Shown in pieces: positions 37,851-43,626 of a DNA stretch of 57,330 bases (position 1 is its first letter; each line of letters opens with the position of its first letter). Under the pieces are notes generated by a model, which worked only from the letters and a program-made list of their open reading frames with translations, was not told where the DNA came from and made no database searches. Source of the DNA: an uncultured Gammaproteobacteria bacterium (GTDB lineage Bacteria; Patescibacteriota; Microgenomatia; Levybacterales; UBA12049); the NCBI GenBank assembly GCA_964416505.1, contig CAYQEJ010000004.1:1-57330 (forward strand), read 5' to 3'. The translations under genes were made by a program, and so were the position numbers.

Positions 37851-38278
37851 AATTCTTCAATTGTAATTTCTCTTTTATCATTTTCTAAATATTTGAATTT
37901 TATTCTATAACCTTTTGATGGATTAAATCCCAAAAGTCTTTCTGCCCATTCAATTACGGTTAATGAGTCCTCTTCACCAACAAATTCTTCAATTCCTAAT
38001 TTATCAATTTCAGTTGGCTCTTCAATTCGATACAAATCAATGTGATTCAATTTTTTAATGTTATTAACAAAAACATTGTGATTTCTAACTAAAACAAAAG
38101 TTGGCGAAAGAATTCTATCCTTTATCCCGAGCCCTTTTGCAATTCCCTGAACAAAAGTTGTTTTTCCAGCACCTAAATTTCCAAATAAAAGAAGCGTATC
38201 CCCTGGCATCAAATTCTTTGCGAATTGCAAACCCACATCCTTTGTTTCCAATGAATTATTTGTCAAAAATTTTTTCAT
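37847..38278 (-). CDS. tsaE: t6A biosynthesis ATPase TsaE
   Basis: GNLGAGKTT, SPTF, HIDLYRI, IEWAE. Confidence 0.95.
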   Translation of the reverse strand: MKKFLTNNSLETKDVGLQFAKNLMPGDTLLLFGNLGAGKTTFVQGIAKGLGIKDRILSPTFVLVRNHNVFVNNIKKLNHIDLYRIEEPTEIDKLGIEEFVGEEDSLTVIEWAERLLGFNPSKGYRIKFKYLENDKREITIEEL

Positions 38279-39080
38279 ATATTTCCTTGAAGGTAAAATA
38301 CTTTAATAGTATTTTACCAGTTGCTAATAGTATTAGTAAAAATCCCCCGACTAGAAACACGGAAGGAATTTTTTCATCTTTTGCACCTAAGACTTCAGTC
38401 TTATTCTTAACTTCCGAAGGCGCGCTAGTACTATTTACTCTAGTAAAATTACTAGAAACTTTAAATTTAGGGGTTATTTTAACAGAATTATTTGATTTTA
38501 AGGAGGGAGAATTTGAAATTTTAAAAGACGTAGGAGCTCTGGTTGGAACTTGTGAGATATATTTAGAAACCGTAGACGATTTCATAGAAATTGGAGTTTT
38601 CGTTGGTGTTGGACTAGGAGGGATAATAACACTTGAGGAGTTATTTGATAGATTTCTTGAAGGATTTGAAAAAATATTCCAACTAGAGCTTCCATCAGGA
38701 AGCCTACCCATTGAACCAGGAGAATCTGTAGTACTCAGCCCTCCTTTATCTCCATAAGAAACTTGATCCACTATGGATTCATCTAAAATTAAAACAAGTT
38801 TTAAGATATCTCCCCCATTGTTTAATTTATTAGACCAATCAAAAGTTAAAAATCCCTGGGGAGGTAAACTTCCTGATAAATCGAGTTTATTTTTTTCAGA
38901 TGAATCCCTTAATTTATATAAATTTAAATCTATCGTTTCTGTTCCAGAATTATAAATCTCTATCCAGTCTTCAGATGTACTCGAGGAAAATTCATTGATA
39001 ACTGGGGCTGAAAATGCGGTTTTGGCAATAGAAAAACTAACTAAAAGAATAGTAACAAAAGCAAAAAATTGCTTTTTCAT
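38256..39080 (-). CDS. Lamin-tail-domain surface protein
   Basis: Signal peptide, VINEF.....DWIEIYN, KLNNGGD, S.GR.PDG, Ser/Pro/Thr linker, VLGA followed by C-terminal TM helix. Confidence 0.82.
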   Translation of the reverse strand: MKKQFFAFVTILLVSFSIAKTAFSAPVINEFSSSTSEDWIEIYNSGTETIDLNLYKLRDSSEKNKLDLSGSLPPQGFLTFDWSNKLNNGGDILKLVLILDESIVDQVSYGDKGGLSTTDSPGSMGRLPDGSSSWNIFSNPSRNLSNNSSSVIIPPSPTPTKTPISMKSSTVSKYISQVPTRAPTSFKISNSPSLKSNNSVKITPKFKVSSNFTRVNSTSAPSEVKNKTEVLGAKDEKIPSVFLVGGFLLILLATGKILLKYFTFKEIYEKIFDK

Positions 39081-39089
39081 TTAATAAAT

Positions 39090-40211
39090 TTATGGTATAT
39101 GCCAATATAAACTTACAAGTCCATTTTTGTGATCTATAATTATTCCCTTTCCTAAAGATCCGTTATAACTGCAAACTGCGGAAGTTGCATATGCTTCTCC
39201 TGAATCCATGGCTCTAATGGGAGTACCAAATGGATTTGCAATATCAATTCCTGTATGAGTACCCAAGAAATAAACTTCTCCGTACCAAGTCGTAACGCTT
39301 CCTGGATATCCTGGAACTGGCTTCTCATAGGAAGAGTTTTCAAGGTATGGCTTAGGATCTACTCTATTTCCTATAACTCTATTATTTTCTACGTGAGCAT
39401 TTGTATAAACCTCAAAATGAAGATGTGGTCCTGTTGAACAACCGCTAGATCCCACTCCGGCAATTACATCCCCTTTATTTACCGGCCCAATTTTTTCCGA
39501 AATGCTTCCTAAAGCAGCATTTATGGAAGCTGCATCTGCTTTAAGTCTTGCTAAGAGCTCCTGAAATTTATCCTCATCATTTTTAGTAACTGATAAAAGT
39601 TGTTCTTTTCCAGCTTTATCTTGATCCAATTGAGCTTTATAGCCTTCAAGTTCTCGATTTAATCTTTGAATTTCAGCTTTTTTATCTTGAAAAATATCTT
39701 TTTGATTCGCATAGTCATTTCTCGCTTGGACTGTATCGTATATTAATCTTTTATCATGAGCCTGAGCAATTCTTAGATAATTTGCTTTTTTAATAAAATC
39801 ATCTACATTTCCAGAAGAAAGTAAAATCTGAAAAGAAGAAGCATTTCCAGCTTTATATGTTTCCTGAACTCTATTTATAAGTATTTCTGAAATAGAATCG
39901 AGAGAATTCTCAAGCTTACCAATTTTTTTATCTGCAGTATCAATGTCTAAAGTTAAGTCTGAAATTTGAGCTTCTGCAGAGTCTATCTTAAGAGTTGTAA
40001 GCTTAATATTATTATCAATGACACTTATCTGTGAAGACAAAGTCTTTTCCTGTCCTTGAAGCTCAGATATTTTTGCTTGAGTTTCCGCAATTTGCCTTAG
40101 GATTTCGGACTGGTTCTTACTATTTGTTGGAGAAGGCGTTTGAGCATAAGATATACCAGGAAAAACCAAAAGAAAAGTTAAGATTGAGACGAAAAATAGC
40201 CTAATTTTCAT
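39090..40211 (-). CDS. Secreted coiled-coil protein with a circularly permuted M23 peptidase domain
   Basis: Signal peptide, long heptad region, GCSTGPHLHFEV (HxH) located before HTGIDIA (HxxxD). Confidence 0.88.
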   Translation of the reverse strand: MKIRLFFVSILTFLLVFPGISYAQTPSPTNSKNQSEILRQIAETQAKISELQGQEKTLSSQISVIDNNIKLTTLKIDSAEAQISDLTLDIDTADKKIGKLENSLDSISEILINRVQETYKAGNASSFQILLSSGNVDDFIKKANYLRIAQAHDKRLIYDTVQARNDYANQKDIFQDKKAEIQRLNRELEGYKAQLDQDKAGKEQLLSVTKNDEDKFQELLARLKADAASINAALGSISEKIGPVNKGDVIAGVGSSGCSTGPHLHFEVYTNAHVENNRVIGNRVDPKPYLENSSYEKPVPGYPGSVTTWYGEVYFLGTHTGIDIANPFGTPIRAMDSGEAYATSAVCSYNGSLGKGIIIDHKNGLVSLYWHIP

Positions 40212-40244: not shown

Positions 40245-41468
40245 CTAGAAAACCACTTTTTCTACTTCTACAATTCTCGCTGTTGGATATCTTCCTCTAA
40301 AATCAATATTATTTCCGTTTGGAGTAAACGGATCTTTCATTGTGTAATTTCCATTTGAACCGCTTACGAATACGACAAAATGATCCGCTAAGGGACCCCC
40401 ATCGTAAGAAATTCCTATCACTACAGGATTTCCACTTGATAAAACTGAGTCTATTGAATCATATACGCGAGATGAAGTTGCTCCATCTGCTGAAATAACT
40501 TTAAGTAAAAATGCTGGATAATATGACGCGAAATTAGAAGAATTTGAATTAATAGTCTGAGGATTTACTCCGCGATGTCCATAATGGGTATAAATCATAG
40601 CCATAGATGTAACTAGACATCCATCCGATGCTAACGTATAACCTGTTCCGTTTAATGCATTATTTCCCCACTGTGAATCACGCTGGTTATAGTAACATCC
40701 CCAATCATCACACTGGGTTTGCCCAGAAAGAATCGAGGCTCCTCCCTGAACCTGCGTAAAATTAGTAAATCCAGCCAACTGAGCTTTCGCTTGAGCCAAA
40801 AGTCTTTGATAATTATCCTCACTTCCCTGCGTCTCAGCTAGAAGCCTGTTCTTAGCCTGTTTTTCTATTTCAATCTGAGATTGATAATTTGCGAGCTCTA
40901 CCCCAAGTCTCTCTGCCTTTGTCTTCTGATCTTCAAAAATATCCTTCTGATTTGCATAATCATTTCTCGCTTGGACAGTATCATAAATTAATTTTTTGTC
41001 ATGCGCCTGAGCAAGACGCAGATAATTTGCCCTCTCTACAAAATCTTCAGCATTTTTTGATGAAAGTAAAACTTGAAATCCAGAAGCAGATCCAACCACA
41101 TATGTTGCCTTTATTCTATTAATTAAAACCTCTGATAGTTTATCTAAAGAATTTTCAAGTTTTACAATTTTTTTATCAGCTGTATCAATATCTAAAGTTA
41201 AGTCTGAAATTTGTTTTTCAGTAGAATCAATTCTAAGCTGCGTTAAATTAATCTGATTATCCATAACAGCTATCTGAGATGTTAAAGTTGATTCCTCACT
41301 TTTCAATTTAGATATTTTCGCTTGAAGATCATTAATTTTATTTTGAAGATCATTTGTTTCTGCAGTTTTATCAGGAGTGGGCGTTGGTGTTGTAGTTTGA
41401 GCTTTTGAACTAACCGAAAAAACCAAACTAAAAACAATTATTAGAAGAAAAAAGGACAGCTTTCTCAT
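40245..41468 (-). CDS. Secreted coiled-coil protein with C39-like cysteine peptidase domain (PcsB/CwlO-like architecture)
   Basis: Same coiled coil as its neighbour; YYNQRDSQWG, GCLVTSMAM, HFVV, KDPF. Confidence 0.85.
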   Translation of the reverse strand: MRKLSFFLLIIVFSLVFSVSSKAQTTTPTPTPDKTAETNDLQNKINDLQAKISKLKSEESTLTSQIAVMDNQINLTQLRIDSTEKQISDLTLDIDTADKKIVKLENSLDKLSEVLINRIKATYVVGSASGFQVLLSSKNAEDFVERANYLRLAQAHDKKLIYDTVQARNDYANQKDIFEDQKTKAERLGVELANYQSQIEIEKQAKNRLLAETQGSEDNYQRLLAQAKAQLAGFTNFTQVQGGASILSGQTQCDDWGCYYNQRDSQWGNNALNGTGYTLASDGCLVTSMAMIYTHYGHRGVNPQTINSNSSNFASYYPAFLLKVISADGATSSRVYDSIDSVLSSGNPVVIGISYDGGPLADHFVVFVSGSNGNYTMKDPFTPNGNNIDFRGRYPTARIVEVEKVVF

Positions 41469-41474
41469 AGGAAA

Positions 41475-42341
41475 TTATTTAAGATATCTTAACACAGCGA
41501 GATAACTTGAGAAAGCTCCCAAAAGAATTGCAACGATTATTTGTATTCCTAAAAGCTCGAGAAGAACAATAGGAGATATTGGAAAAACTGGAATACCCTT
41601 TAAAAAAGATGAAAGATAAGGAGTCACATATAAAAGAGCTACTACGGAAATAAGCCAGCCCACCACAGCCCCTACTAAACCATAAAAAATTCCTTCCATA
41701 ATAAAAGGCCATCTAATATACCAACTCCCCGCTCCGATAAGCCTCATTGTTTCAATATCAGATCTTTTTTGAGAAATTTTTATACCAATTATCGTAACCA
41801 TAATAAATACAGAAACCAAAGCAAGAATAACAACAACTGCCAACCCAATCTTCCTAATCGCTCCCGTCCAAGCGCTTAATGTAGATACCACATCCTTCTG
41901 AAATACAACCTCCTGTACGATTGAAGACTTTTTTAAAGTGTCAGAAACCAAACTTAAATCTTCTATCTTATAGGTAGAGATTTCAAGTGATGCTGGTAAA
42001 ATATCAGCAGTCACAAGATCTAGAAGAAGCGGATCATCCTTATTTTGCTCTTTGTAGATTTTTAAAGCTTCATCTTTTGAAACATATTTGACGCTTGAGA
42101 TTAAACCTGATTTTTGAAGTGAATCTCCTAAACCCTTAATTTCTTCTTGCTTTGCTTCGTCTTTGAAAAAAGCCGTTACCTGGGGCTTAGATTCAAAATA
42201 ATTTACTATTCTGGTTGAACTAAATATTATAAGACCAAACACAGAAAATGCCAAAAAAGTAAGCATCATTACGAAAATAGCCGCTATAGCTTGATACGGA
42301 GATCTTCTTACATTTTTCCACATAGTTCTAACAGATTTCAT
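41475..42341 (-). CDS. ftsX: Cell-division permease FtsX
   Basis: TM, then extracellular domain (YVSKDEAL, LPASLEI), then 3 TM; IETMRLIGAG..YIRWPFIMEG. Confidence 0.93.
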   Translation of the reverse strand: MKSVRTMWKNVRRSPYQAIAAIFVMMLTFLAFSVFGLIIFSSTRIVNYFESKPQVTAFFKDEAKQEEIKGLGDSLQKSGLISSVKYVSKDEALKIYKEQNKDDPLLLDLVTADILPASLEISTYKIEDLSLVSDTLKKSSIVQEVVFQKDVVSTLSAWTGAIRKIGLAVVVILALVSVFIMVTIIGIKISQKRSDIETMRLIGAGSWYIRWPFIMEGIFYGLVGAVVGWLISVVALLYVTPYLSSFLKGIPVFPISPIVLLELLGIQIIVAILLGAFSSYLAVLRYLK

Positions 42342-43126
42342 TTCAAAGCCTCCTCAAAATCATCAGTTTTTATTTCTGATGATTCCTTTTTATCTTCTTT
42401 TTCATCGGTTTTTTCTTCATGCTCTTTCTTGTGTTCTTTTTTTTCGTGCTCCTCTTTCTTATGAGTTTTTTTATCATTTACAAGGGCTCCTTTGTTTAGC
42501 TCGATTATTCTTTTATTTAGTTTTTTGACGATCTCATTATTATGTGTTGCCATAATTATGGTAGTTCCTTTTTCGTTAATATTTTTCAAAAGCTCTACAA
42601 TTTCCCATGAGGTAGTATCATCTAGATTTCCTGTTGGCTCATCAGCTAATAAAATATCTGGTGAAAGAATAAGCGCACGTGCGATAGCTGCTCTCTGCAG
42701 CTCTCCTCCTGAAAGCTGTATAGGAAACTTATCTTTATGCTCCAGAATTCCAACCTGATTTAGTATTTCCATAGCTCGAGAAGTAGCATCTTTCTTATTT
42801 ACTCCAACCACTTCCAACGGAAGCATGGTATTCTCAAGTATTGTTCTATCTGTTAAAAGCTTAAGGTCCTGAAAAACTACTCCAATTTTCTTACGCAACT
42901 CAGGAACTTTTTTATTAGGCAGCTTTATTAAATCCCATGAATCGACAACTACAGTACCTTGAGTGGGAAGCATTTCACGAATAAGAAGTTTAAAAATCGT
43001 AGTTTTACCTGAACCAGTTGGGCCAATTAAGAAAACAAATTCACCTTTTTCAACCAGAAAGGAAATATCAGAGATAGCAAATACACCAGTACCAAATTTT
43101 TTTGAAACGTTTTCTAGGCTAATCAT
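42338..43126 (-). CDS. ftsE: Cell-division ATPase FtsE with a charged C-terminal tail
   Basis: GPTGSGKTT, VVFQD.KLL, LSGGE.QR, LADEPTGNLD, ATH; coupled to ftsX. Confidence 0.93.
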   Translation of the reverse strand: MISLENVSKKFGTGVFAISDISFLVEKGEFVFLIGPTGSGKTTIFKLLIREMLPTQGTVVVDSWDLIKLPNKKVPELRKKIGVVFQDLKLLTDRTILENTMLPLEVVGVNKKDATSRAMEILNQVGILEHKDKFPIQLSGGELQRAAIARALILSPDILLADEPTGNLDDTTSWEIVELLKNINEKGTTIIMATHNNEIVKKLNKRIIELNKGALVNDKKTHKKEEHEKKEHKKEHEEKTDEKEDKKESSEIKTDDFEEALK

Positions 43127-43149: not shown

Positions 43150-43626
43150 CTATTCGAGTACCTCTACTCGTCCGACATCCATTAACCAGCCCGCATATTG
43201 GGCTTTTTGAGTCTGCCCCCACACCTTAACTTTTTTACCTTTAACTAAAGAAAGATCGACCGCTGATGATGTCAGATAAACAAATTGACTGTCTCCACCC
43301 GGACGCTCTAAATGATACTGACCTTCACCTTCAATTCCGCCTTCCTTCATTACTCCTTCTGCTGTATCTTTAAATGTGCTCGTATCATTTGATCCTAGAG
43401 ATGTACCTTTAGTTACTTGAGATTTGTCAGTTACTTGCTTTGTTGGTTCAAGTGATCCGCCTGAAACTCTTGCAATTAAAAATCCACTGCCAATTCCAAG
43501 AACTGCCATAACTAATACCACTAAAACCATGGCTAACGGAAATTTTTTCTGATTTGAGTCAAATTGCTGCACTAATTCTTCCTCTGTATTTTTGTTTTTT
43601 TCCATAACATGATGTTCTGGATACAT
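43150..43626 (-). CDS. Hypothetical single-TM protein with a small beta (OB-like) domain
   Basis: TM at about aa 30-52; GGIEGEG.YHL, YLTSS.VDL, GWLMDVGRV. Confidence 0.75.
   Translation of the reverse strand: MYPEHHVMEKNKNTEEELVQQFDSNQKKFPLAMVLVVLVMAVLGIGSGFLIARVSGGSLEPTKQVTDKSQVTKGTSLGSNDTSTFKDTAEGVMKEGGIEGEGQYHLERPGGDSQFVYLTSSAVDLSLVKGKKVKVWGQTQKAQYAGWLMDVGRVEVLE

What the first reader, a model, noticed from the sequence alone, without database searches (positions are those of the whole stretch)
39090..39510. Circularly permuted M23 (LytM) metallopeptidase domain
Seen: after the coiled coil the order is VNKGDVIAGVGSSGCSTGPHLHFEV...VDPKPYL, then P..GSVTTWYG....HTGIDIANPFGTPIRAMDSG...GKGIIIDHKNGLVSLYWHIP-stop. 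Known: canonical M23 domains run HxxxD, then YxH, then GxVxxG...HxH, then DP. Here the C-terminal half comes first and the protein ends at the YxH, while all zinc ligands appear intact. Inference: an active, permuted M23 whose new N-terminus attaches the coiled coil at a different face, which could change how FtsEX gates it.
Basis: partly seen in the sequence, partly recalled or inferred. Interest (0 to 1): 0.7.

Follow-up and report, generated by a model that had tools for sequence, protein, structure and literature searches.

The report
Circularly permuted M23 cell-wall peptidase
The cell-division wall-cutting enzyme next to ftsEX in this ultrasmall (CPR) bacterium has its M23 zinc-peptidase domain encoded back half first, and the same rearrangement is found in hundreds of related genomes but not in any paper I could search.

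Summary
Window 39090-40211 (minus strand) encodes a 373-aa secreted protein: signal peptide, an EnvC/PcsB-like coiled coil (30-235), then an M23 domain (236-373). In that domain the HxH half (H263, H265) precedes the HxxxD half (H319, D323), and the chain stops two residues after the third conserved histidine (YWH371-IP).

Pfam and PDB alignments match the two halves in reversed order, abutting exactly. Re-joining them in silico restores one contiguous PF01551 match. AlphaFold2 gives one compact domain (pLDDT 92, pTM 0.87).

The order is conserved in Microgenomates, WWE3 and Saccharibacteria proteins, almost always directly downstream of ftsE-ftsX. All five catalytic or zinc residues are at least 90% conserved. 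Parcubacteria, Firmicutes and Actinobacteria keep the canonical order.

Best reading: an active, FtsEX-controlled septal peptidoglycan endopeptidase whose permutation puts both chain ends, and the coiled-coil attachment, beside the catalytic centre. Activity, zinc-site geometry and gating were not measured. Seven literature searches found no description. I rate it a new variant of a known kind.

The parts
39090..40211 (-). Whole gene: 373-aa secreted coiled-coil protein with a circularly permuted M23 peptidase domain (cpM23). The stop codon is at 39090-39092.
   Evidence: ORF list and translation. Homologues cover 100% of its length.
40143..40211 (-). Signal peptide, residues 1-23 (MKIRLFFVSILTFLLVFPGISYA).
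   Evidence: Read directly from the sequence. AlphaFold2 gives helix 2-16 followed by a low-confidence stretch at 17-30.
39507..40124 (-). EnvC/PcsB-like coiled-coil module, residues 30-235. Helices are 30-52, 58-122, 136-209 and 213-235. This is the presumed FtsX-binding and force-transmitting part.
   Evidence: AlphaFold2 secondary structure. Foldseek hits to EnvC in FtsEX complexes (8tzl_E, 6tpi_A), to RipC (8idc_E) and to PcsB (4cgk). PF24568 CC_PcsB scores 21.7 bits, below its cut-off of 27.
39507..39575 (-). Last, alanine-rich helix, residues 213-235. It runs straight into the first strand of the peptidase domain and is a candidate autoinhibitory element.
   Evidence: DSSP gives H213-235 then E237-244. 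S229, I230 and A233 are invariant in the 54-sequence alignment. The analogy to the EnvC restraining arm comes from PMC7668044 and is inference.
39342..39506 (-). First half of the domain, equivalent to the canonical C-terminal half: residues 236-290, GDVIAGVGSSGCSTGPHLHFEV...VDPKPYL.
   Evidence: Matches PF01551 profile positions 62-92. Aligns to the C-terminal halves of solved M23 domains.
39417..39425 (-). HxH motif, H263-L-H265. By homology the first His is catalytic and the second is a zinc ligand.
   Evidence: Invariant and at least 90% conserved in 258 relatives. Roles are taken from Csd3/LytM (PMC4356371).
39321..39341 (-). Short linker ENSSYEK, residues 291-297, joining the former C-terminus to the former N-terminus.
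   Evidence: Lies between the two profile matches. HxH-to-HxxxD spacing varies from 47 to 73 residues among relatives, as expected for a surface join.
39093..39320 (-). Second half of the domain, equivalent to the canonical N-terminal half: residues 298-373, PVPGYPGSVTTWYG...HTGID...IIIDH...LYWHIP.
   Evidence: Matches PF01551 profile positions 2-52. Aligns to the N-terminal halves of solved M23 domains.
39243..39257 (-). HxxxD motif, H319-TGI-D323. Both are zinc ligands by homology.
   Evidence: Invariant and at least 90% conserved in 258 relatives. Roles from PMC4356371.
39093..39107 (-). C-terminal YWHIP, residues 369-373. It carries the third conserved His (H371, equivalent to Csd3 His306), and the chain ends two residues later.
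   Evidence: 118 of 120 close homologues end in LYWH[ILM]P. H371 is at least 90% conserved.
39438..39440 (-). Cys258, at the loop III position equivalent to LytM Asn286. Probable disulfide partner of Cys347.
   Evidence: Co-occurrence pattern. Positional equivalence read from the motif GxxG-x-STxPHxH and from PMC4356371.
39171..39173 (-). Cys347, at least 90% conserved in all permuted clades. It is paired either with Cys258 or with a Cys in a C-terminal tail.
41475..42341 (-). ftsX: FtsX extracellular domain plus permease domain.
   Evidence: PF18075 at 3.6e-17 and PF02687 at 2e-14.
42338..43126 (-). ftsE, the ABC ATPase.
   Evidence: PF00005 at 1.1e-33. The position is conserved in related loci.
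40245..41468 (-). Paralogue with the same coiled coil but a C39_2-like cysteine-peptidase head, inserted between ftsX and cpM23.
   Evidence: 57% identity over residues 1-228, then no similarity. PF13529 at 1.5e-6. Present only in the window, L008, L011 and L068.

Best explanation
The gene encodes the FtsEX-coupled septal peptidoglycan hydrolase of a Microgenomates (Levybacteria-like) bacterium. Its head is an intact zinc M23 endopeptidase whose chain is circularly permuted.

Proposed mechanism, with the basis for each step:
1. The protein is exported by its signal peptide. This is read directly from the sequence.
2. Its EnvC/PcsB-type coiled-coil hairpin docks on the extracellular domain of FtsX. 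This is inferred from fold similarity and conserved gene order.
3. ATP binding by FtsE moves FtsX and the coiled coil, which relieves autoinhibition of the head. This is inferred by analogy with EnvC, PcsB, RipC and CwlO.
4. The head binds zinc through H319, D323 and H265 and cleaves peptidoglycan peptide links with help from H263 and H371. Conservation of these residues is shown here. Their chemistry is inferred from LytM and Csd3.

Because the domain starts at the hairpin that normally follows the catalytic YxH strand, and ends two residues after that histidine, both chain ends sit next to the catalytic centre. The coiled coil's last helix is joined to the domain through a single residue. 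Mechanical input from FtsEX would therefore act beside the active site, not at the distal canonical N-terminus. This follows from topology; the geometry was not measured.

A conserved cysteine pair, C258-C347, probably staples the two halves together near the break.
For: Permutation:
- The two halves match PF01551 in reversed order and cover complementary parts of the profile.
- In alignments to solved M23 domains the halves abut exactly.
- The re-joined sequence gives a single match to profile positions 2-92 at 79.6 bits.

One domain:
- AlphaFold2 on the domain alone gives pLDDT 91.7 and pTM 0.87.
- An all-or-none cysteine pattern links a loop of the second half to the first half or to the C-terminal tail: 138 + 113 + 7 of 258 sequences, with no unpaired case.

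Likely activity:
- H263, H265, H319, D323 and H371 are at least 90% conserved at a weighted effective sequence number (Neff) of about 99.
- Their roles are known in Csd3 and LytM (PMC4356371).

FtsEX coupling:
- ftsE and ftsX lie upstream on the same strand, separated from each other and from the following genes by gaps or overlaps of a few bases to 33 bases.
- The order prfB - membrane protein - ftsE - ftsX - cpM23 is conserved in nearly all of the 80 loci that have enough flank.
- The same adjacency is seen in a third lineage and in Saccharibacteria.
- The full-length model hits EnvC from FtsEX-EnvC complexes, RipC from the FtsEX-RipC complex, and PcsB.
- The EnvC mechanism is described in PMC7668044.

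Origin:
- A canonical-order coiled-coil M23 protein (P0196) is 46-47% identical in one half and 67-69% identical in the other.
- Its relatives in Falkowbacteria, Magasanikbacteria, Firmicutes and Actinobacteria are all in canonical order.
Against: - There are no biochemical data for any family member.
- Foldseek with the confident domain model found no M23 structure in the PDB at all. I attribute this to its sequence-order dependence, but that is not proven.
- The last helix is only moderately more conserved than the rest of the coiled coil, so a restraining-arm role is weakly supported.
- In this particular genome a paralogue sits between ftsX and the gene, so which hydrolase FtsEX serves here is open.
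- The cysteine pattern reflects only two or three independent lineages.
Confidence: 0.75

Rival explanations
1. It is a catalytically silent adaptor like E. coli EnvC. The permuted LytM-type domain would only recruit and activate a separate amidase, and the conserved histidines would serve structure or binding.
For: The overall architecture and the FtsEX linkage are those of EnvC. JGI pipelines label Saccharibacteria relatives 'septal ring factor EnvC (AmiA/AmiB activator)'. EnvC's LytM domain is a non-enzymatic activator (PMC7668044).
Against: EnvC lacks the catalytic residues. Here all five are at least 90% conserved across 258 proteins. The NCBIfam EnvC equivalog scores 44.5 bits against a cut-off of 270, and matches only the coiled coil.
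Confidence: 0.1
2. The two half-domains do not fold together within one chain. They complement in trans, so that the first half of one chain pairs with the second half of another, giving an obligate domain-swapped dimer held by the coiled coil.
For: PcsB, a relative in architecture, crystallised as a dimer (4cgk appears among the hits; Cook et al., PMC7668044, raise the possibility that PcsB engages FtsEX as a monomer). The linker between the halves can be very short in some relatives, with 47 residues between HxH and HxxxD.
Against: AlphaFold2 folds the single chain into one compact domain with pTM 0.87. EnvC engages FtsEX as a monomer.
Confidence: 0.07
3. It is an artefact or a decaying gene: a mis-assembly, or a truncated remnant of a tandem M23-M23 gene that no longer makes a functional domain.
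For: Tandem M23-M23 proteins exist, and the query spans their B1-linker-A2 junction. This is the expected raw material for such a remnant.
Against: The same order, the same end point and intact motifs recur in more than 250 distinct proteins from independent assemblies and three CPR lineages. The reading frame is full length with strong purifying conservation. There are only 9 bases between the stop codon and the next gene, so no leftover half lies downstream.
Confidence: 0.02

Closest known systems
Canonical-order coiled-coil M23 proteins next to ftsEX (named 'EnvC family / peptidoglycan DD-metalloendopeptidase' in Firmicutes, Actinobacteria and Parcubacteria; for example P0196, P0392 from Falkowbacteria, P0395 from Firmicutes)
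   Same: Signal peptide, PcsB/EnvC-type coiled coil, and a C-terminal M23 head with intact HxxxD, YxH and HxH motifs. Half-by-half identity to the permuted proteins is 46-69%.
   Different: The motif order is HxxxD, then YxH, then HxH. In the one example read, P0196, a Pro/Gly-containing stretch separates the coiled coil from the domain. In the window protein the order is HxH, then HxxxD, then YxH followed by the chain end, and the helix joins the domain directly.
E. coli / V. cholerae EnvC (FtsEX-EnvC-AmiA/B; PDB 6tpi, 8tzl)
   Same: Coiled-coil hairpin, LytM-type head and FtsEX coupling. These are the best Foldseek matches of the full-length model. The mechanism of helix-mediated autoinhibition is in PMC7668044.
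   Different: EnvC's LytM domain is in canonical order and catalytically dead, and it activates amidases. It has a restraining arm of about 50 residues. Here the head keeps all catalytic residues, is permuted, and is preceded by a helix of only 23 residues.
PcsB (S. pneumoniae), and RipC / CwlO (Mycobacterium, Bacillus)
   Same: Direct FtsEX-controlled hydrolases of monoderm-type envelopes, built as a coiled coil plus a C-terminal catalytic head.
   Different: Their heads are CHAP or NlpC/P60 cysteine peptidases, not M23. The window's own paralogue at 40245-41468 is the PcsB-like version.
Circularly permuted NlpC/P60 families (YaeF/poxvirus G6R and LRAT-like)
   Same: A precedent for a natural circular permutation of a cell-wall peptidase catalytic domain that swaps the order of the catalytic residues (PMC6403190).
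   Different: They have a different fold (papain-like) and different chemistry. There is no known link to FtsEX.
Hybrid barrel-sandwich (HABAS) fold class, to which M23 belongs
   Same: Topologies related by circular permutation are described between families of this fold class (PMC11515920). The fold is therefore known to tolerate re-connection.
   Different: Those permutations distinguish distant families such as NusG and RNAP inserts. No permuted M23 peptidase is described there.

Membership tests
Peptidase M23 (Pfam PF01551, LytM/lysostaphin type) | Significant match to the family profile above the curated cut-off | tested here: met
   68.3 bits against a cut-off of 28.7, E=6.8e-19. PDB M23 chains match down to E=6.9e-11.
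Peptidase M23 (Pfam PF01551, LytM/lysostaphin type) | HxxxD motif (two zinc ligands) | tested here: met
   H319-TGI-D323 is invariant. Its role is described in PMC4356371.
Peptidase M23 (Pfam PF01551, LytM/lysostaphin type) | HxH motif (catalytic His plus third zinc ligand) | tested here: met
   H263-L-H265 is invariant.
Peptidase M23 (Pfam PF01551, LytM/lysostaphin type) | Additional conserved His in the YxH strand (Csd3 His306) | tested here: met
   Y369-W-H371 is at least 90% conserved.
Peptidase M23 (Pfam PF01551, LytM/lysostaphin type) | Canonical linear order HxxxD, YxH, HxH as one contiguous domain | tested here: not met
   The order here is HxH (263), HxxxD (319), YxH (371). Profile positions 62-92 precede positions 2-52. 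It is therefore homologous to M23 but a topological variant.
Peptidase M23 (Pfam PF01551, LytM/lysostaphin type) | M23 three-dimensional fold with the five residues around one zinc site | tested here: inconclusive
   AlphaFold2 gives one compact beta domain, pLDDT 91.7 and pTM 0.87. Foldseek, which depends on sequence order, found no PDB M23 hit. BFVD hits reached TMq 0.46-0.57; I read only the weakest of the three (phage P60, TMq 0.46), and its sequence shows the same permuted order.
Peptidase M23 (Pfam PF01551, LytM/lysostaphin type) | Zinc-dependent peptidoglycan endopeptidase activity | not testable with these tools
   Needs an enzyme assay.
Circular permutant of a known domain | The two segments match complementary, non-overlapping parts of the parent profile in swapped order, and re-joining restores one contiguous match | tested here: met
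   Segment matches to positions 62-92 and 2-52. The re-joined sequence matches positions 2-92 of 96 at 79.6 bits. The junction falls at the same residue of 3slu.
Circular permutant of a known domain | The permuted order is heritable and conserved, with canonical-order homologues in sister lineages | tested here: met
   118 of 120 close relatives and all 117 Saccharibacteria relatives are permuted. Relatives of P0196 in Parcubacteria, Firmicutes and Actinobacteria are canonical: 79 scored A then B by motif, 40 had only the HxxxD motif found, and none was permuted.
FtsEX-coupled coiled-coil cell-wall hydrolases/activators (EnvC, PcsB, RipC, CwlO class) | Secreted protein with a long antiparallel coiled coil N-terminal to a hydrolase-type head | tested here: met
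   AlphaFold2 helices 58-122 and 136-209. Foldseek hits to EnvC, RipC, RipA-N and PcsB.
FtsEX-coupled coiled-coil cell-wall hydrolases/activators (EnvC, PcsB, RipC, CwlO class) | Genomic linkage to ftsE-ftsX | tested here: met
   Seen in the window, in nearly all of the 80 GTDB loci that have enough flank, and in L082-L084.
FtsEX-coupled coiled-coil cell-wall hydrolases/activators (EnvC, PcsB, RipC, CwlO class) | Physical binding to the FtsX extracellular domain and ATP-dependent activation | not testable with these tools
   Needs pull-down, structural and ATPase-coupled assays.
EnvC proper (amidase activator, NCBIfam NF008644) | Degenerate LytM active site and an equivalog-level profile score | tested here: not met
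   The active-site residues are intact. The score is 44.5 bits against a cut-off of 270, and the match covers only the coiled coil.

The most novel reading that the evidence does not exclude
An ancient circular permutation, arising once or a few times, re-wired the FtsEX-controlled M23 hydrolase in one large branch of the CPR (Microgenomates, WWE3 and Saccharibacteria, but not Parcubacteria/ABY1). As a result the force-transmitting coiled coil is fused rigidly to the strand beside the catalytic histidine. This would be a new way of gating a cell-wall hydrolase, by pulling directly on or plugging the active site instead of using a long restraining arm. It would also be a rare genomic change usable as a deep phylogenetic marker within Patescibacteria. 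A related permuted M23-like module may also exist in cyanophage ejection proteins.
Probability: 0.3. Interest if true: 0.8.

Novelty: new variant of a known kind. Interest (0 to 1): 0.62.

Why it matters
- **Cell division in the CPR.** FtsEX-controlled hydrolases are central to bacterial cell separation and are studied as models of transmembrane mechanotransmission. This appears to be the standard FtsEX partner of a large part of the CPR/Patescibacteria, whose cell biology is almost unexplored, and it is built differently from every characterised example.
- **A natural experiment.** The permutation puts both chain ends at the catalytic centre. That offers a way to see how coiled-coil movement is converted into enzyme activation.
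- **Annotation.** Pipelines currently call these proteins 'EnvC', 'CwlO-like' or generic M23, and sequence-order-dependent structure search misses the fold.
- **Phylogeny.** The canonical-versus-permuted split may be a useful marker inside the CPR.
- **Testability.** Saccharibacteria carry the same variant and are genetically tractable (PMC10633639), so the idea can be tested.

Tried and rejected
- **Foldseek against the PDB.** The confident domain model (pLDDT 92) gave no hit at E<=1e-3 and no M23 among the 50 best matches listed. I do not take this as evidence against the fold. phmmer finds the same PDB M23 chains at 1e-10, and Foldseek depends on sequence order. The discrepancy is still unexplained.
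- **Zinc-site geometry.** Measuring it was impossible.
- **Phage search.** tblastn of the domain against phage genomes gave joined hits covering most of the query. The only single-piece hit spanning both halves, H4 (a Staphylococcus phage tape measure), was read and is a canonical M23. The two-piece joins H1-H3 were not read, and their length fits canonical M23.
- **Single origin.** A neighbour-joining tree of re-joined halves put 48 of 50 permuted units in a 54-tip clade with 6 canonical units, but did not give clean monophyly. The domain is too short to decide, so I make no claim.
- **Duplication intermediates.** I looked for a coiled coil followed by tandem M23 domains. Every representative with a matching coiled coil is either permuted or canonical, and none is tandem.
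- **Last helix as restraining arm.** Its conservation is only slightly above the rest of the coiled coil, so I kept this as a weak inference.
- **Literature.** Seven full-text searches completed; two further attempts failed. None of the five that targeted a permuted M23 or the FtsEX partner of CPR bacteria found one. The Patescibacteria genetics paper does not mention FtsX, EnvC or M23 in its main text.
Full report
**1. What is in the sequence**

Window 39090-40211 on the minus strand is an ATG-started ORF of 373 codons. It reads as follows.
- Residues 1-23 are a signal peptide.
- Residues 30-235 are a long helical region.
- Next comes ...GPVNKGDVIAGVGSSGCSTGPHLHFEV...VDPKPYL, then the short linker ENSSYEK.
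- Then PVPGYPGSVTTWYGEVYFLGTHTGIDIANPFGTPIRAMDSG...GKGIIIDHKNGLVSLYWHIP, followed by the stop codon.

Their coordinates (39090-39510) cover residues 235-373, the whole peptidase domain.

**2. Is it really a permuted M23 domain?**

The sequence evidence is consistent on every test.
- Pfam PF01551 matches at E=6.8e-19 and 68.3 bits (cut-off 28.7), in two stretches.
- Scanned separately, the first segment matches profile positions 62-92 and the second matches positions 2-52.
- phmmer against all PDB chains aligns query 318-372 to the N-terminal halves of solved M23 domains and query 234-275 to their C-terminal halves.
- In 3slu both pieces meet at chain residue 295, so the halves abut with nothing lost or duplicated.
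- When I re-joined the halves in silico in the canonical order, Pfam gave one contiguous match to positions 2-92 of 96, at 79.6 bits.

In canonical enzymes the order is HxxxD, then a conserved His, then HxH. The HxxxD His and Asp and the second His of HxH bind zinc (PMC4356371). Here the order is H263-x-H265, then H319-xxx-D323, then YWH371 followed by the chain end.

**3. One domain or two fragments?**

- AlphaFold2 on residues 230-373, with a 54-sequence alignment, gives a single compact all-beta domain: mean pLDDT 91.7 and pTM 0.87.
- The full-length model has pLDDT 81. It shows helices 30-52, 58-122, 136-209 and 213-235, and the last helix runs into strand 237-244 with one intervening residue.
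- Foldseek with the domain model found no M23 structure in the PDB, although sequence search finds those chains easily. I attribute this to order dependence, but it remains unexplained.
- In BFVD the model aligned over its full length, with TMq 0.46-0.57, to three phage virion proteins. I read one of them, Synechococcus phage P60 gp33. Its C-terminus reads GSTGPHLD ... FGVDFATPDG ... YAFVHG followed by the end, which is the same swapped order.

Independent support for packing of the halves comes from cysteines. The counts among 258 full-length permuted proteins are:

| Pattern | Proteins |
|---|---|
| C347 + C258, two-residue tail | 138 |
| C347 + a Cys in an 11-18-residue C-terminal tail | 113 |
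| None of the three | 7 |
| Any unpaired Cys among these positions | 0 |

C258 occupies the loop III position of LytM Asn286, next to the active site. This pattern suggests a disulfide that staples the region of the new chain ends. It reflects only two or three independent lineages.

**4. Is it conserved?**

- 118 of the 120 closest database proteins have the same order and end in LYWH[ILM]P. Those that carry a source name are from Levy-, Woese-, Roizman- and Curtissbacteria.
- 215 stretches in GTDB species representatives encode relatives.
- A search of 1.84 billion cluster representatives with the domain alone returned about 45 single-stretch, full-length permuted hits among the best 150.
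- It also returned tandem M23-M23 proteins in which the query spans the B1-linker-A2 junction. These are the classical raw material for permutation by duplication and loss.
- Further permuted clades are candidate division WWE3, Saccharibacteria (117 proteins, all permuted on inspection) and an unnamed lineage (P0270).
- H263, H265, H319, D323 and H371 are each at least 90% conserved after weighting, with an effective sequence number (Neff) of about 99.

**5. Where the canonical form persists**

A canonical-order coiled-coil M23 protein (P0196) is 46-47% identical in the HxxxD half and 67-69% identical in the HxH half to the permuted proteins. Its 119 listed relatives include Falkowbacteria, Magasanikbacteria, a 'Patescibacteria group' MAG, Firmicutes and Actinobacteria. 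By motif order 79 are canonical, 40 had only the HxxxD motif found, and none is permuted.

The permutation therefore separates Microgenomates, WWE3 and Saccharibacteria from Parcubacteria/ABY1 and from non-CPR phyla. A neighbour-joining tree of re-joined halves is compatible with one or a few origins but cannot decide.

**6. Genomic context**

On the same strand, separated from one another by gaps or overlaps of a few bases to 33 bases, lie these genes:
- prfB
- a 158-aa single-pass membrane protein
- ftsE
- ftsX, with its extracellular domain
- a coiled-coil protein with a C39_2-like cysteine-peptidase head
- the permuted M23 gene
- an LTD surface protein
- tsaE and sua5

In nearly all of the 80 related loci that have enough flank, the order is prfB - membrane protein - ftsE - ftsX - cpM23, with cpM23 directly after ftsX. 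The same ftsE-ftsX-cpM23 adjacency holds in the P0270 lineage and in Saccharibacteria.

The extra paralogue occurs only in the window genome and three relatives. It shares 57% identity with cpM23 over residues 1-228 and then diverges completely, so it is a recent swap of the catalytic head.

The full-length model's best structural matches are EnvC in FtsEX-EnvC complexes (8tzl_E, 6tpi_A), the RipA N-terminal domain, RipC in FtsEX-RipC (8idc_E) and PcsB.

**7. How it most likely works**

Shown here:
- homology to M23
- the permuted order
- conservation of the catalytic and zinc residues
- a compact predicted domain
- an EnvC-like coiled coil
- conserved linkage to ftsEX

Inferred from established knowledge of EnvC, PcsB, RipC and CwlO (PMC7668044):
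- The coiled coil binds the FtsX extracellular domain.
- ATP binding by FtsE drives a conformational change that releases an autoinhibited head.

Inferred from Csd3 and LytM (PMC4356371):
- H319, D323 and H265 hold the zinc.
- The first His of HxH (H263 here) is the catalytic residue, and H371 matches a further conserved active-site His.

Inferred from topology only:
- The domain begins at the hairpin that canonically follows the YxH strand and ends two residues after that His.
- The coiled coil is therefore attached next to the catalytic centre through a helix-to-strand junction of one residue. EnvC instead has a restraining arm of about 50 residues.
- FtsEX movement could thus act directly on the active-site region.

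I put 0.75 on the overall reading (an active, FtsEX-coupled, permuted M23 endopeptidase) and about 0.3 on the specific new gating idea.

**8. Rival explanations**

- **An EnvC-like silent activator.** This is disfavoured by the intact, conserved active site and by the failed EnvC equivalog score.
- **Trans-complementing half-domains in a dimer.** This cannot be excluded, but it is not what the monomer prediction shows.
- **An artefact or decaying remnant.** This is excluded by conservation across independent assemblies.

**9. Comparison with what is known, and novelty**

It works like the FtsEX-coupled hydrolases and is homologous to M23. It fails one defining feature of the M23 domain as catalogued, namely the linear order.

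Circular permutation is known for NlpC/P60 cell-wall peptidases (PMC6403190). It is also known between distant families of the hybrid barrel-sandwich fold class that includes M23 (PMC11515920).

The five searches that targeted it and the Patescibacteria genetics paper turned up no description of a permuted M23 peptidase or of the CPR FtsEX partner. No NCBIfam model reaches its cut-off.

I rate it a new variant of a known kind. It is of real interest to people working on cell-wall hydrolases and on the CPR. It is testable because Saccharibacteria carry the same variant and can be manipulated genetically (PMC10633639).

Noticed in passing
window 39438-39440 (C258) and 39171-39173 (C347); alignment of 258 relatives: There is an all-or-none cysteine pattern. 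C347 is always accompanied either by C258 (138 proteins with a 2-residue tail) or by a Cys in an 11-18-residue C-terminal tail (113 proteins, mostly Saccharibacteria). Seven proteins have none of the three. This suggests a disulfide stapling the region of the new chain ends. C258 sits at the LytM Asn286 position in loop III.
   Followed up: partly
window 40245-41468 (-): A paralogue has the same signal peptide and coiled coil (57% identity over residues 1-228) but a C39_2-like cysteine-peptidase head, so it is PcsB-like. It is inserted between ftsX and cpM23 only in this genome and in L008, L011 and L068. It is a recent swap of the catalytic head that gives one FtsEX two candidate hydrolases.
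   Followed up: partly
window 43150-43626 (-): A 158-aa single-pass membrane protein with no Pfam or NCBIfam match is conserved between prfB and ftsE in almost all Microgenomates loci examined. It may be an unrecognised part of the division operon.
   Followed up: partly
window 38256-39080 (-): A lamin-tail-domain (LTD) protein with a signal peptide, a Ser/Thr/Pro-rich region and a C-terminal membrane anchor recurs immediately downstream of cpM23. It is seen in many Microgenomates loci and in the P0270 lineage (L082, L083).
   Followed up: no
L086 5328-5777 (Synechococcus phage P60 gp33 C-terminus); BFVD entries A0A510E7V3_3, H6WFX6, L0CQF1: The C-terminal domain of a cyanophage virion/ejection protein reads GSTGPHLD ... 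FGVDFATPDG ... YAFVHG followed by the end. This is the same swapped order, with some ligands replaced. It aligns colinearly with the window domain: Foldseek TMq 0.46-0.57 and BLASTP 28% identity over 76 residues. Pfam does not recognise it as M23. It may be a second home of the permuted topology.
   Followed up: partly
P0145, P0148, P0150, P0161 and about 15 others (one search list): Proteins with two canonical M23 domains in tandem are common among the distant hits. The permuted query aligns across their B1-linker-A2 junction. They are plausible analogues of the duplication intermediate, but none carries the coiled coil.
   Followed up: partly
L001-L011 and many other loci from genome contigs: Many records titled 'uncultured Gammaproteobacteria bacterium' carry this Microgenomates-type operon at 70-85% protein identity to the window. 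Sister records are titled Levyibacteriota. The titles of these MAG records are evidently generic or wrong.
   Followed up: no
domain model m6c5e2db5236e (window 39093-39524): Foldseek against the PDB returned no M23 match, not even to one half, for a model with pLDDT 92. Sequence search hits the same PDB chains at 1e-10. Sequence-order-dependent structure search appears blind to this permutant.
   Followed up: partly
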